From a virus: a DNA stretch of 64,000 bases. A model generated the notes under the pieces. It searched no databases. It was not told the origin of the DNA and saw nothing but the letters and a program-made list of their open reading frames with translations. The position numbers and the translations under genes were made by a program. Below are positions 27,504 to 29,975 of the stretch, piece by piece; the first letter of the stretch is position 1; the number at the start of each line of letters is the position of its first letter. The stretch lies in IMG/VR virus record IMGVR_UViG_3300032294_001558; one strand, written 5' to 3'.

Positions 27504-29975
27504 TTAGGCGTCAAGTACCTCCTTGTACAGGTTCAGAAGCGAATCGAGGCTGGCGGTCTTGGACTCCAGCGCTTCATACTGCTTACGCTCGACCGGGGAG
27601 CCGCAGAGCTTGACCACCAAGCAGGGGTTTTTCTGGCCCGCCCGGTGGACGCGAGCATTGGCTTGGTGCCAGATTTCGTTAGAGGTCACAGGCCCCCACC
27701 ACACGACAGTGTTGGCCGCGTGCAACGTCACACCATGCGAAGCAGCGGCGGGCTGAATCAACAGAATGCGTGGATCAGGTCCAGTCTGAAACGCCTTAAA
27801 TATTTCTGTACGTTTATGAGCAGCTACACCACCATGAACTACTTCTACTGTGTATCCGTCTTTTTTCAGTTGGTTCTCTAGATGGTCTATTGCGTGCCGG
27901 AAAGGGACGAAGACAAGAACTTTGTGTGTGCTTTCTTCTATCGCTTCTAGTAAAACATTATACCGATGTGTCATGTCGAACACTACGGTATTACCGTCGT
28001 CGGTATAGACCGCCCCACAGTTATGTACAATTAGCGGGGTGCCTGTAGCCCCCCGGACTACAAACCTACTGCGCGGCCCACAGTTTACAAGGTCGTAGAC
28101 TCGCTCCGTACCAGCGTAGTGAGCGCTTTCTCTAGCGGCCAGTTGTACCGAAACAGTCGCGCATGTAGCGTCGCTTTCTTTATACCGTAGACTTCCGCCG
28201 CCTGTGTTACCGTCAAACGGCCCTTTGGTGTATCCACCCACTGGTTGAACCGCGTATTGTTGGCTTGCTCCGTAGCCGTAGCCCATCGACAGTTCTCTGG
28301 ACTGTACGGGCCATTCACGTTTATCCGATCTAACGCCAAACCATCGGCGTACCCTTCCTGCATGTCGGCCCAGAAATTCGCAAACGACTCTTCCCAATGT
28401 TTGCAAACAGTTATCCCCCGTGCTCCGTAATTTTGGTAGTCTTTGTCTTTTGGGTCTAAACATCTCCGCCGCATACCGGACCATACGCGGTACGGGCGAG
28501 ATTGCGTCATTCTGTGCGTTTCGTTCCCGTGATGGCAACCACAACTCCTTGGGTGCACCCTCTTCGTATTGCGAAGATATTGGCTCTGCCTCTCCACAAC
28601 CGCCCCGCAATCGCATTGACACACCCACTTCGCGCACTGACTTCCGCGCACCGTTGACTCGGCTCGCGCTAATACCACCAGGAAGCCGAACCTCTGCCCA
28701 GTCAAGTCCAGCGCCCGTCGCACGGGGTTTGAGTATGTCATCTGCCGTCGCCCATCCGTCATTTGTAAGCACCTTATGATCTGCGGTCATACGAACCCCA
28801 GCAACGGTAACCAAGGGCTTTACACCCCGGAAGATCGCTCCTTGCTGGGCCACCCACTCCACGCCATCCCAAACGCGATGTTGTGGAGTAACGAGTTGGA
28901 TTGGTAACCAACCTACGTCGGTTAATACGTCTGTGTTATACGATATACATGCTACCTGTAAAAGCTTGTTAAGATTAGTAGCCGCATTGACCGACGTTAC
29001 GGTTTCTCCAGCGGCAGTCATTATAAACTGCTCTTTGAGGAGCTTGTAGTACTTAGACTGCTGCGGTGTGAGCGGGGCTTCGCGCGTGGTATACAGCAAT
29101 TCCGGCAGGTCTAAGCATTCATCTTTCGTAAATCTGATCGCTGGCTGTAGTATTTTGTTAATCGTTTCGGCTGCATCAGTCTTAGGTTTCCACCTAAACT
29201 GTGTGAGTTTATACATCACTCTATCGCGGAATGTATAGAAATTTGATGGTATTGATCCCGGGTCCATCATTTTAGCTAGGCCATAAGCGTCAGTAGGACT
29301 TTGCGAGGCAGGGGTGCCAGTCAACATCCACAGCCACGTATTCGGCTGAATTAATGAGTTGATCGCTCTCCATCTTTTGGTGGTGGCGGTTTTTACTGCG
29401 TTGGCTTCGTCGATTATTACCAAATCGAAACCGCTATCTTTCAGGTCTGGTAGGACTGTTTCGACGCCATCAAAATTTATGATGACAAACTCAGCATCGG
29501 ATTGTATGACTTTAGTACGTTTCTCTCTGCTACCGTGAGCAATATCTACCCTGCGGTGCATGACCGTTTTGAACAGGTCAGCGCGCCACGCCGAGTTCAT
29601 GATCGACAGTGGGCAGATCACCAAAACGCGTCTGACATGCCCCGTACGCAACAAGTAGTCCGCTGCCCACGCTACGCTTGCGGTCTTGGCGGTGCCCGGG
29701 TCGTTGAAACAATACGCTCTACGATGGAGTGTGAGAAACGAAGCTGTAGTCCGCTGGTGCGCAAATGGCGTATATATCCCCGGCCAGTTGTAGTGCTTTT
29801 CTATTGGCGATGGTACTTTCTTGACGCCTAGATTCTTTAGTACTTGGGACTCGTCTAGGCCCCAATAGACCAACACTGTGCCATCGGCTAGTTGTTTGGA
29901 ACGGGGGATCGTTGCGAGCACCCGCTCGGGGTGCCGCAACTTAAGAAGCAAAGCTTTGTTCTCTACTATCTGCAT
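27504..29975 (-). CDS. SNF2/SWI2-family helicase, intein-containing precursor
   Basis: 823 aa. Motifs DPGTAKT, LVIIDEANAVK and C-terminal QANARVHRAGQ. Interrupted by the Hint element 28020..28949. Confidence 0.8.
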   Translation of the reverse strand: MQIVENKALLLKLRHPERVLATIPRSKQLADGTVLVYWGLDESQVLKNLGVKKVPSPIEKHYNWPGIYTPFAHQRTTASFLTLHRRAYCFNDPGTAKTASVAWAADYLLRTGHVRRVLVICPLSIMNSAWRADLFKTVMHRRVDIAHGSREKRTKVIQSDAEFVIINFDGVETVLPDLKDSGFDLVIIDEANAVKTATTKRWRAINSLIQPNTWLWMLTGTPASQSPTDAYGLAKMMDPGSIPSNFYTFRDRVMYKLTQFRWKPKTDAAETINKILQPAIRFTKDECLDLPELLYTTREAPLTPQQSKYYKLLKEQFIMTAAGETVTSVNAATNLNKLLQVACISYNTDVLTDVGWLPIQLVTPQHRVWDGVEWVAQQGAIFRGVKPLVTVAGVRMTADHKVLTNDGWATADDILKPRATGAGLDWAEVRLPGGISASRVNGARKSVREVGVSMRLRGGCGEAEPISSQYEEGAPKELWLPSRERNAQNDAISPVPRMVRYAAEMFRPKRQRLPKLRSTGDNCLQTLGRVVCEFLGRHAGRVRRWFGVRSDKREWPVQSRELSMGYGYGASQQYAVQPVGGYTKGPFDGNTGGGSLRYKESDATCATVSVQLAARESAHYAGTERVYDLVNCGPRSRFVVRGATGTPLIVHNCGAVYTDDGNTVVFDMTHRYNVLLEAIEESTHKVLVFVPFRHAIDHLENQLKKDGYTVEVVHGGVAAHKRTEIFKAFQTGPDPRILLIQPAAASHGVTLHAANTVVWWGPVTSNEIWHQANARVHRAGQKNPCLVVKLCGSPVERKQYEALESKTASLDSLLNLYKEVLDA
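28020..28949 (-). mobile_element. mini-intein in the SNF2 helicase
   Basis: Cys-1 block CISYNTDVLTDVGW, block B MTADHKVLT, C-terminal PLIVHN followed by the +1 Cys. 310 codons, in frame with the helicase. Confidence 0.7.
28085..28762 (-). CDS. HNH homing endonuclease nested out of frame inside the helicase intein
   Basis: 225 aa in a frame offset from the helicase. Motifs [54 protein letters not shown] lies 8 nt upstream of the ATG. Confidence 0.65.
   Translation of the reverse strand: [225 protein letters not shown]

What the first reader, a model, noticed from the sequence alone, without database searches (positions are those of the whole stretch)
28020..28949. Helicase mini-intein with an HNH endonuclease gene overprinted in another frame
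Seen: the SNF2 helicase ORF is interrupted after ..NKLLQVA by Hint blocks (CISYNTDVLTDVGW; MTADHKVLT; ..GTPLIVHN followed by CGAVYTDDG). Between these blocks the helicase frame gives about 190 aa of R/G/S-rich, low-information sequence. A frame offset by 1 nt on the same strand (28085..28762) encodes a well-formed 225-aa HNH nuclease. It has [22 protein letters not shown] and [26 protein letters not shown], plus its own AAGGTG-ATG. About 680 nt are therefore stop-free in two frames. Established: inteins normally carry the homing endonuclease as an in-frame domain. Inference: this is a free-standing HEG nested out of frame in a mini-intein. The host frame must stay open for splicing, so both frames are constrained. 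I do not know of a described example.
Basis: partly seen in the sequence, partly recalled or inferred. Interest (0 to 1): 0.72.

Follow-up and report, generated by a model that had tools for sequence, protein, structure and literature searches.

The report
Intein with out-of-frame nested endonuclease gene
A self-splicing protein insert (intein) in a phage helicase gene carries a separate endonuclease-like gene in a reading frame shifted by one base; the layout is real and kept by selection in hundreds of phages, but this general design was first described in 2025.

Summary
The minus-strand SNF2 helicase ORF (27504..29975) holds a 310-aa class-1 intein (28020..28949). A 225-aa ORF (28085..28762) lies in the +1 frame, so 678 nt are open in two frames.

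This is not an error or chance. In 97 of 98 related full-length inteins the homologous ORF is also at +1, and the host frame has no stop. Codons ending in T never precede AA/AG/GA codons (0 of 4527, against 21% elsewhere). About 11 stops per locus would be expected. Eleven free-standing homologues all have stops in that frame.

Substitutions show that selection acts on the host frame in the Hint lobes and on the nested frame in between. The host-frame linker is predicted disordered; the nested protein is predicted well folded (pLDDT 89). A 96%-identical phage contig lacks exactly the 930 nt.

The family is large: about 940 clusters, including DNA-polymerase inteins of APSE-1, Caulobacter and Shewanella phages.

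Two caveats apply. Out-of-frame endonucleases in inteins were reported in a 2025 preprint, for another nuclease type. The "HNH" label is weak: no Pfam hit, and an invariant Arg replaces the catalytic His.

The parts
27504..29975 (-). SNF2-family helicase precursor ORF (823 aa, including the intein)
   Evidence: SNF2-rel_dom E=2.7e-20 (aa 91-339), Helicase_C E=1.2e-15 (aa 673-780), phrog_62 DNA helicase E=3.6e-97.
28950..29975 (-). N-extein (aa 1-342), ending ...NKLLQVA
   Evidence: It is contiguous with the C-extein in the intein-less allele L136.
28020..28949 (-). Class-1 intein, 310 aa: Cys1 ... block B T-A-D-H ... His-Asn, followed by Cys+1
   Evidence: C1, T55, H58, H309, N310 invariant in 12 relatives. 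(Hint fold; Foldseek hits to Ssp DnaB, DnaX and Npu DnaE mini-inteins, prob 1.0). It is precisely absent from L136.
28671..28949 (-). Hint N-lobe (intein aa 1-93); its last ~30 codons are overlapped by the 5' end of the nested ORF
   Evidence: pLDDT 82-89 for aa 1-76; differences between relatives fall on host codon position 3.
28122..28670 (-). Host-frame linker (intein aa 94-276), predicted disordered and R/G/S-rich; it is the alternative reading of the nested gene
   Evidence: pLDDT below 50 for aa 94-276; composition; variation concentrated at host position 1.
28020..28121 (-). Hint C-lobe (intein aa 277-310; blocks F/G: VYDLVNCGPRSRFVV...LIVHN)
   Evidence: pLDDT 78-86; conserved columns; host position-3 variation.
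28085..28762 (-). Nested 225-aa ORF in the +1 frame: CxC...CGC zinc-finger-like module, I-HmuI-like (HNH_3-like) beta-beta-alpha core with Arg in place of the catalytic His, and a C-terminal HTH
   Evidence: phrog_374 E=2.3e-61, phrog_3377 E=1.2e-51; thousands of homologues, best 65% identity; model pLDDT 89.1; I-HmuI 1u3e, E=0.11; HTH only in Pfam.
28770..28775 (-). Shine-Dalgarno-like AAGGTG, 7 nt upstream of the nested ORF's ATG (28760..28762); formed by the Lys-Val codons that follow the block-B His
   Evidence: In relatives the same position reads GAGGT or AAGGT. 59 of 87 loci have GGAG/GAGG/AGGA before a candidate start, against an 11% background.
27504..28019 (-). C-extein (aa 653-823 plus stop), starting CGAVYTDDG
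   Evidence: In L136, 6 of the first 18 nt differ.

Best explanation
This is a mobile intein that carries its mobility gene as an overprinted, separately translated ORF.

Splicing (inferred). The helicase mRNA is translated into an 823-aa precursor. The two Hint lobes (intein aa 1-93 and 277-310) fold together, and the 183-aa stretch between them loops out as a disordered linker. It sits at the position where ordinary inteins carry an in-frame endonuclease domain. Class-1 protein splicing (Cys1, block-B Thr-x-x-His, C-terminal His-Asn, Cys+1) then rejoins ...KLLQVA to CGAVY... and restores the helicase.

Translation of the nested gene (inferred). On the same mRNA, ribosomes initiate internally at ATG 28762. 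The AAGGTG in front of it is made of the Lys-Val codons following the block-B His. They read the +1 frame and make a 225-aa protein with a zinc-finger-like module, an I-HmuI-like core and an HTH.

Homing (inferred). This protein is proposed to bind and nick or cut intein-less helicase alleles at the insertion site during mixed infection. Repair then copies the intein plus gene into the empty site.

How the two frames coexist (shown). A host-frame stop can arise only where a nested-frame codon ending in T is followed by a codon starting AA, AG or GA. Selection removes exactly those combinations by synonymous choice. The nested protein evolves under ordinary purifying selection, and the host-frame linker is free to vary as long as it stays open.

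Shown: the architecture, the selection pattern, the family distribution, the empty allele and the degenerate derivatives. Inferred: splicing, internal initiation, nuclease activity and homing.
For: 1. Recurrence. 97 of 98 full-length relatives from IMG/VR and GTDB genomes have the homologous ORF at +1 and no host-frame stop.
2. Stop avoidance. T-ending codons before AA/AG/GA codons number 0 of 4527, against 20.6% T3 elsewhere. The expectation is 11.1 stops per locus, and the third frame has a mean of 12.4 stops.
3. Control. All 11 free-standing homologues have stops in that frame, 2 to 41 each.
4. Which frame is selected. Window versus L001: differences by host codon position 1/2/3 are 7/2/22 in the Hint N-lobe, 73/23/26 in the overlap and 2/4/14 in the Hint C-lobe. 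Over 56 pairs the counts are 715/560/1650, 5614/2752/2453 and 94/74/387.
5. Structure. The intein model has pLDDT about 85-89 in both Hint lobes and below 50 for aa 94-276, and it matches mini-intein structures. The nested ORF model has pLDDT 89 and matches phage 'HNH/AP2' proteins in BFVD at E=1e-21.
6. Splicing residues are invariant in relatives.
7. Mobility. L136 is 96% identical over 4.5 kb and lacks exactly the 930 nt. Six substitutions lie in the 18 nt just 3' of the site. Eighty further helicase homologues are intein-less. The intein is 69% identical between the window and L001, against 53-58% for the exteins. The module occurs at five or more different sites in helicase and PolA genes.
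8. Decay stage. Mini-inteins L092 and L096 keep remnants of the nested gene in the +1 frame.
9. Start signals. Start codons recur at +187, +202/205 and +220 nt of the intein, with SD-like motifs in 59 of 87 loci.
10. Not an intron. Rfam finds no group I intron in the region.
Against: - The nested protein is not a canonical HNH. None of 60 family members hits a Pfam HNH model. Foldseek finds no PDB match below E=1e-3. The only solved relative, I-HmuI, aligns at E=0.11, and the general-base His is an invariant Arg. Nuclease activity is therefore unproven.
- There is no direct evidence that the +1 ORF is translated. The window's SD is only AAGGTG, helicase-frame ribosomes would run over it, and no dedicated promoter is found.
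- Splicing of an intein with a 183-aa disordered insert has not been tested.
- Presence/absence polymorphism could also arise by precise loss or by ordinary recombination.
- Hint-only identity and nested-ORF identity co-vary only moderately (Spearman 0.39).
Confidence: 0.78

Rival explanations
1. Sequencing or assembly artefact: two compensating indels displace an endonuclease domain that is really in frame with the Hint blocks.
For: In-frame endonuclease domains are the usual design.
Against: - The same +1 offset occurs in 97 independent loci from different samples and in isolate genomes such as APSE-1, Caulobacter GB2A and Shewanella SFCi1.
- No relative has offset 0.
- With indels there would be no reason for the host frame to be stop-free over 226 codons (P about 8e-6).
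- The +1 frame has a stop 8 codons before its ATG and ends inside block F.
Confidence: 0.01
2. The +1 ORF is a silent relic. A free-standing gene once invaded the intein, but it is no longer expressed, and the element persists only as a mini-intein with a long linker.
For: There is no expression data. The canonical catalytic His is missing. Degenerate derivatives exist.
Against: - The ORF is intact in 97 loci that have diverged to 28-82% protein identity.
- Substitutions concentrate at its third codon position, so it is under purifying selection.
- The Arg that replaces the His is invariant across free-standing homologues too, so it is a family trait and not decay.
- Start codons with SD-like motifs are conserved.
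Confidence: 0.08
3. The nested protein is made, but it is not a nuclease. It would be a sequence-specific DNA-binding factor (zinc finger plus degenerate His-Me finger plus HTH) that promotes spread or retention of the intein in another way, for example by recruiting a phage or host nuclease or recombinase, or by regulating expression.
For: The His-to-Arg change at the general-base position is invariant in 60 members. There is no Pfam HNH hit and no PDB fold match. Several DNA-binding modules are present. His-Me fingers that lost catalysis but kept DNA binding are known (PMC5714182).
Against: The family behaves like homing-endonuclease genes. It has thousands of sporadic free-standing copies in phages, nests in inteins at conserved sites, and shows empty alleles with altered target sequence. 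The Asp and the two Asn of the metal site align with I-HmuI.
Confidence: 0.12
4. The +1 product is made by programmed +1 ribosomal frameshifting from the helicase frame. That would yield an N-extein-Hint-N-nuclease fusion instead of a free protein.
For: An SD-like AAGGTG lies just upstream, as in some frameshift sites. Both frames are on one mRNA.
Against: The +1 frame is closed by a stop 8 codons before the ATG, which leaves a window of only 24 nt. Relatives have ATG or GTG starts at three different recurring positions with SD-like motifs. No slippery or stop-codon context is evident.
Confidence: 0.02

Closest known systems
[quoted passage not shown]
   Same: The endonuclease gene lies inside the intein, between the splicing blocks, on the same strand but in another reading frame. 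The host frame stays open, and its product is predicted unstructured. The authors interpret it as invasion of an intein by a free-standing endonuclease gene.
   Different: That nuclease is endonuclease VII-like and sits in 'frame 3'. The hosts are actinophage genes, and the design is described as rare. Here the nuclease-like protein is I-HmuI/HNH_3-like with Arg for His, and the offset is +1. The hosts are SNF2 helicase and PolA genes of phages of Proteobacteria, Firmicutes and others. The family has about 940 clusters at 50% identity.
[quoted passage not shown]
   Same: An HNH-type ORF is hidden in an alternative frame of an insertion that is stop-free in the host frame, and the insertion has a sporadic, homing-like distribution.
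   Different: ShiLan has no splicing domain, so the insert is thought to stay in the protein. Its frame offset is +2, with a GTG start and no recognisable ribosome-binding site. Here a complete Hint domain flanks the ORF.
Hamiltonella phage APSE-1 P45 (DNA polymerase) / P46 (NC_000935.1)
   Same: It is a member of the same intein family (30% identity over all 310 aa), with the homologous ORF at +1. RefSeq annotates P46 as 'HNH endonuclease' nested in P45.
   Different: The host gene is PolA, not the helicase. P46 is annotated only from an internal ATG. I found no paper in the searchable library that discusses the frame relationship.
Fractured genes: split inteins with a free-standing endonuclease gene between the halves (Dassa et al. 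2009, PMC2677866)
   Same: A free-standing endonuclease gene is lodged at the endonuclease position of an intein in phage replication genes, with short coding overlaps at the edges.
   Different: There the host gene is broken into two ORFs and spliced in trans. Here the host frame reads through the whole nested gene.
I-HmuI (PDB 1u3e), an HNH_3 intron-encoded nicking endonuclease of Bacillus phage SPO1
   Same: It is the only solved structure the family profile reaches. The motif G-L-x-[LV]-D-[HR]-x-[DN]...N-[LC]-R-W-[VA]-T...N aligns.
   Different: The match is weak (E=0.11). The general-base His75 is Arg here. The accessory domains differ: zinc finger plus HTH here, NUMOD-type modules there.

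Membership tests
Class-1 intein (Hint domain) | Cys/Ser at intein position 1 and Cys/Ser/Thr at +1 of the C-extein | tested here: met
   Cys1 (CISYNTD) and Cys+1 (CGAVY). C1 is invariant in 12 relatives. 84 of the 88 relatives listed have C...HN|C or S.
Class-1 intein (Hint domain) | Block B Thr-x-x-His and C-terminal His-Asn | tested here: met
   T55-A-D-H58 and H309-N310 are all invariant columns in A1.
Class-1 intein (Hint domain) | Hint fold | tested here: met
   AlphaFold2 model pLDDT is 82-89 for aa 1-76 and 78-86 for aa 277-310. Foldseek hits in the PDB: Ssp DnaB mini-intein E=2.3e-4, DnaX, Npu DnaE and gp41-1, prob 1.0.
Class-1 intein (Hint domain) | In-frame insertion in a conserved host motif, with intein-less alleles | tested here: met
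   L136 lacks exactly 930 nt and is 96% identical in the flanks. L137-L215 are also intein-less.
Class-1 intein (Hint domain) | Protein splicing activity | not testable with these tools
   Needs expression of the precursor.
HNH / His-Me finger homing endonuclease (I-HmuI-like, HNH_3) | Match to curated HNH profiles | tested here: not met
   No Pfam or NCBIfam HNH hit for the ORF or for any of 60 family members. Only PHROG families annotated 'HNH endonuclease' hit.
HNH / His-Me finger homing endonuclease (I-HmuI-like, HNH_3) | Catalytic general-base His at the end of beta-1 | tested here: not met
   Aligned with I-HmuI D74-H75, the family has D145-R146, and R146 is invariant in 60 sequences.
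HNH / His-Me finger homing endonuclease (I-HmuI-like, HNH_3) | Beta-beta-alpha topology with the structural and metal-binding Asn residues | tested here: inconclusive
   The model has strands at 143-146 and 158-161 and a helix at 163-167. N157 and N169 are invariant. However, the profile match to 1u3e is only E=0.11, and Foldseek finds no PDB hit.
HNH / His-Me finger homing endonuclease (I-HmuI-like, HNH_3) | Site-specific cleavage of the empty allele | not testable with these tools
   Biochemistry is needed. The indirect support is the empty allele with a substitution cluster at the site.
Inteins with a homing-endonuclease gene in a separate reading frame (Gosselin et al. 2025) | Endonuclease ORF inside the intein between the splicing blocks, not in the host frame, with the host frame uninterrupted | tested here: met
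Inteins with a homing-endonuclease gene in a separate reading frame (Gosselin et al. 2025) | Same nuclease type and frame as the described examples (endonuclease VII-like in frame 3; antisense LAGLIDADG or VSR-like) | tested here: not met
   The nested ORF is on the same strand at +1. It has no Endonuclease_7, LAGLIDADG or Vsr hit.
Fractured genes / split inteins (Dassa et al. 2009) | Host gene split into two ORFs by the endonuclease gene | tested here: not met
   A single 823-aa ORF reads through.

The most novel reading that the evidence does not exclude
Overprinting may be the ancestral, stable design of a very large and so far undescribed superfamily of intein-endonuclease elements in phage replication genes, not a rare transitional accident. 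The evidence for scale is about 940 clusters at 50% identity, five or more insertion sites, both +1 and +2 versions, and none found in frame. The design would be held in place by a simple synonymous-codon rule, with the nested gene's ribosome-binding site built from the codons next to the block-B His. The mobility protein would be a non-canonical His-Me finger with Arg at the general-base position, whose chemistry or mode of action differs from known HNH homing enzymes.
Probability: 0.4. Interest if true: 0.72.

Novelty: new variant of a known kind. Interest (0 to 1): 0.6.

Why it matters
- Scale. The finding turns a curiosity into a rule-bound, testable system. One 678-nt stretch encodes two products under different kinds of selection: amino-acid sequence in one frame and only 'no stop' in the other. 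About a hundred independent natural replicates show the same pattern.
- Intein evolution. It supports the 'splicing element first, endonuclease invades later' model. It also shows that an invading gene need not fuse in frame or split the host gene. The recent literature calls such designs rare, but the counts here suggest otherwise.
- Annotation. Gene callers report only one of the two genes. Most GenBank records list just the polymerase, so these nested genes are systematically missed.
- Applications. The intein tolerates a 183-aa unstructured insert, which suggests a permissive site for engineering. The Arg-for-His nuclease-like family, with thousands of phage members, deserves biochemical study.

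Tried and rejected
- Megablast of the helicase locus against GenBank phages found nothing, so there is no close cultured relative.
- Pfam and NCBIfam on the nested ORF gave no nuclease family.
- Foldseek of the nested-ORF model against the PDB gave nothing below E=1. The multidomain model probably hampers global matching.
- The sigma-70 promoter and terminator scan gave nothing above the shuffled expectation, and no promoter in front of the nested ORF.
- Rfam with permissive thresholds on 27800..29200 gave no hit, so a group I intron is rejected.
- There are no tRNA genes in the window.
- Literature searches for APSE-1 plus intein, and for nested HNH in polymerase inteins, found no discussion of the frame relationship. 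Lazarevic 2001 is not held in the library.
- Considered and rejected: paired indels, programmed frameshifting, and a functional host-frame linker domain. The linker has pLDDT below 50, no structural match, and position-1 variation.
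Full report
**1.
On the minus strand, ORF 27504..29975 encodes an 823-aa protein with SNF2-rel_dom (E=2.7e-20) and Helicase_C (E=1.2e-15) domains. It matches PHROG DNA helicase phrog_62 at E=3.6e-97. 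After ...NKLLQVA the sequence reads CISYNTDVLTDVGW...VRMTADHKVLT...GTPLIVHN and then continues CGAVYTDDG. This is a 310-aa insert, aa 343-652, exactly window 28020..28949.

ORF 28085..28762 (225 aa) lies on the same strand, one base downstream of the helicase codon phase. AAGGTG sits 7 nt before its ATG. So 678 nt are open in two frames, while the third frame on that strand is full of stops. The host-frame stretch between the Hint blocks is R/G/S-rich.

**2. What the two readings are.**
The host-frame reading is an intein.
- Cys1, block-B T-A-D-H, the C-terminal H-N and Cys+1 are present, and they are invariant in 12 relatives.
- An AlphaFold2 model gives pLDDT about 85-89 for aa 1-76 and about 78-86 for aa 277-310, but below 50 for aa 94-276.
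- Foldseek matches only mini-inteins: Ssp DnaB at E=2e-4, then DnaX, Npu DnaE and gp41-1, all with probability 1.0.

The +1 reading is a real protein.
- It hits PHROG families annotated as HNH endonuclease (phrog_374 E=2.3e-61, phrog_3377 E=1.2e-51).
- It has thousands of homologues, the best at 65% identity and about 210 aa.
- Its model has mean pLDDT 89.
- It matches many phage 'HNH endonuclease / AP2 / HTH homing endonuclease' models in BFVD, the best at E=1e-21.

Rfam finds no intron in the region.

**3. It is neither error nor chance.**
A search with the host-frame intein found full-length homologues, 31-44% identical over 100% of the query, in other SNF2 helicases and in PolA-type polymerases.

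In 97 of the 98 loci with a full-length intein match, window included, the homologue of the nested ORF lies inside the intein at offset +1, and the host frame has no stop. One locus has offset +2 and none has offset 0.

A host-frame stop can arise only where a nested-frame codon ending in T precedes a codon starting AA, AG or GA.
- In 88 non-identical inteins this happens 0 times in 4527 opportunities. T3 is 20.6% before all other codons.
- Independence would give 11.1 stops per locus, and 11.8 in the window (P of none about 8e-6).
- The remaining frame carries a mean of 12.4 stops.

As a control, eleven free-standing homologues were checked: three in metagenomic loci and eight in GenBank phages. 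All have stops in both alternative frames, with 2-41 in the relevant one.

**4. Which frame is under selection.**
I counted differences by host codon position 1/2/3, first between the window and its closest relative L001 (intein 69%, nested ORF 82% identical) and then summed over 56 equal-length pairs.

| Region | Window vs L001 | 56 pairs |
|---|---|---|
| Hint N-lobe | 7/2/22 | 715/560/1650 |
| Overlap | 73/23/26 | 5614/2752/2453 |
| Hint C-lobe | 2/4/14 | 94/74/387 |

Host position 1 is nested-frame position 3. Purifying selection on protein sequence therefore switches from the host frame to the nested frame and back. In the middle, the host frame is constrained only to remain open.

True double amino-acid constraint is confined to the edges. 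One example is host GLDWAEVRLPGG read against nested [12 protein letters not shown]. Another is the first 13 nested codons, where the Hint reading NDGWATADDILK is the conserved one.

**5. Evidence for mobility.**
- Empty allele. IMG/VR contig IMGVR_UViG_3300008106_000012 (L136) is 96% identical to the window over 4.5 kb and lacks exactly the 930 nt. Six substitutions fall in the first 18 nt 3' of the junction, and one more at the last 5' base; a short way beyond this cluster the flanks differ only about once per 100-150 nt.
- Other empty alleles. Seventy-nine further helicase homologues (58-80% identical) are intein-less.
- Intein versus exteins. Between the window and L001 the intein is more similar (69%) than the exteins (53-58%).
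- Many insertion sites. The module sits at two adjacent sites in the SNF2 'KLLQI(S/A)-GAVY' motif, at three sites in PolA, and in a further helicase motif (HPA|SxGHG).
- Decay stage. Mini-inteins L092 and L096 retain remnants of the nested gene in the +1 frame (DLTGHRFGRL; NLTDQTFGML...STLYYRLKHG). They are deletion derivatives, as expected late in a homing cycle.

**6. Expression signals.**
Candidate starts recur at +187, +202/205 and +220 nt of the intein. In 59 of 87 loci one of them has GGAG, GAGG or AGGA 4-16 nt upstream, against 11% for random positions. At +187 that motif is formed by the codons for (Lys/Glu)-Val directly after the block-B His. No promoter-like site above chance lies in front of the ORF. 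Internal initiation on the helicase mRNA is therefore the simplest reading, but it remains inferred.

**7. How large the family is.**
- A profile of 12 full-length inteins finds 942 clusters at 50% identity with E<=1e-30 among 1.84 billion representatives. They are typically matched end to end, and many proteins contain two to four copies.
- Fifty-three GenBank phage records carry it in PolA genes. I verified +1 in Hamiltonella phage APSE-1, Caulobacter phage GB2A, Shewanella phage SFCi1 and Streptococcus phage Javan255. I verified +2 in Salmonella Jerseyvirus EnJE6.
- In APSE-1 the nested ORF is annotated (P46, 'HNH endonuclease' inside P45 'DNA polymerase'), though only from an internal ATG.

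**8. Caveat on 'HNH'.**
- No Pfam or NCBIfam HNH model matches the ORF or any of 60 homologues. Only a C-terminal HTH is recognised.
- The family profile reaches a single solved structure, I-HmuI, at E=0.11. It aligns LDRIDNNG..NCRW..QANN with VDHKDGN..NLRW..VEN.
- The Asp and both Asn residues are kept, but the general-base His is an Arg that is invariant in the family.
- The model shows a beta-beta-alpha unit at 143-167, yet Foldseek finds no PDB match.

So the protein works like, and is distributed like, a homing endonuclease, but membership in canonical HNH fails one defining test. Activity must be shown experimentally.

**9. Comparison with what is known.**
- Gosselin, Arsenault & Gogarten (bioRxiv 10.1101/2025.01.02.630785) report actinophage inteins whose endonuclease is encoded in another frame (endonuclease VII-like, 'frame 3') or antisense (LAGLIDADG, VSR-like). 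They propose invasion by free-standing genes and regard such designs as rare.
- Arsenault et al. (PMC11855218) describe an out-of-frame HNH in a methylase insert that has no splicing domain.
- Dassa et al. (PMC2677866) describe split inteins with a free-standing endonuclease gene between the halves.

None of these mentions this Hint/+1 family or APSE. The present case is therefore a new variant of a recently described kind: a different nuclease-like family, a different frame, different hosts and a far greater abundance.

**10. Verdict.**
It is not unprecedented. Its value lies in the strength and scale of the comparative evidence, in the simple codon rule that sustains the overlap, and in the atypical nuclease-like protein. 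Interest 0.6.

Noticed in passing
window 32370..33248 (-), inside ORF 31758..34535 (-): The PolA-type DNA polymerase gene of the same window carries a second intein (293 aa...GKTVVLG|CFGPDTQ...ALIVHN|CGYQTG). It has a nested HNH-like ORF (32371..33171, 266 aa, phrog_374 E=5e-29) in the +2 frame, not +1. This ORF is 35% identical to the helicase-intein ORF over 110 aa. A related +2 arrangement exists in the PolA intein of Salmonella Jerseyvirus vB_SenS-EnJE6.
   Followed up: partly
L136 2510..2545 versus window 28001..28019 and 28950..28965: The intein-less helicase allele differs from the occupied allele at 6 of the 18 nt just 3' of the insertion point, including one Ala/Cys change (CGAVY versus CGCVY). 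A short way beyond this cluster the flanks differ only about once per 100-150 nt. This could be a co-conversion tract or a cleavage-resistant target.
   Followed up: partly
L092 3001..3381; L096 3001..3471: Two mini-inteins of the same family in MAG contigs keep recognisable remnants of the nested gene in the +1 frame. L092 keeps the 5' motif. L096 keeps both ends, with the core deleted.
   Followed up: yes
L083 1684..2571 and 3001..3933; proteins P0143-P0160: Some polymerase genes carry two to four inteins of this family, each apparently with its own nested ORF.
   Followed up: no
L216 (Streptococcus phage Javan46), L218 (Bacteroides phage BS-TP2): Free-standing homologues of the nested ORF sit immediately upstream of DNA helicase genes. 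This hints that the family targets helicase loci even when it is not in an intein.
   Followed up: no
L135 (APSE-1, NC_000935.1) 2700..3353: P46 is annotated from an internal ATG (141 aa). The open +1 frame extends about 74 codons further upstream over the zinc-finger module, with no ATG there, so the start may be non-ATG or the annotation may be truncated.
   Followed up: partly
window 30611..30877 (-): An 88-aa ORF between the exonuclease genes carries a short HNH-like motif (ALDHIKPIKDGG...N). It matches only phrog_4590, of unknown function.
   Followed up: no
window 23007..34535 (-): The surrounding block is a phage replication module on the minus strand: primase/helicase, SNF2 helicase, two exonucleases and PolA. 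Structural genes lie on the plus strand upstream. There are no tRNA genes, and no close relative exists among GenBank phages.
   Followed up: partly
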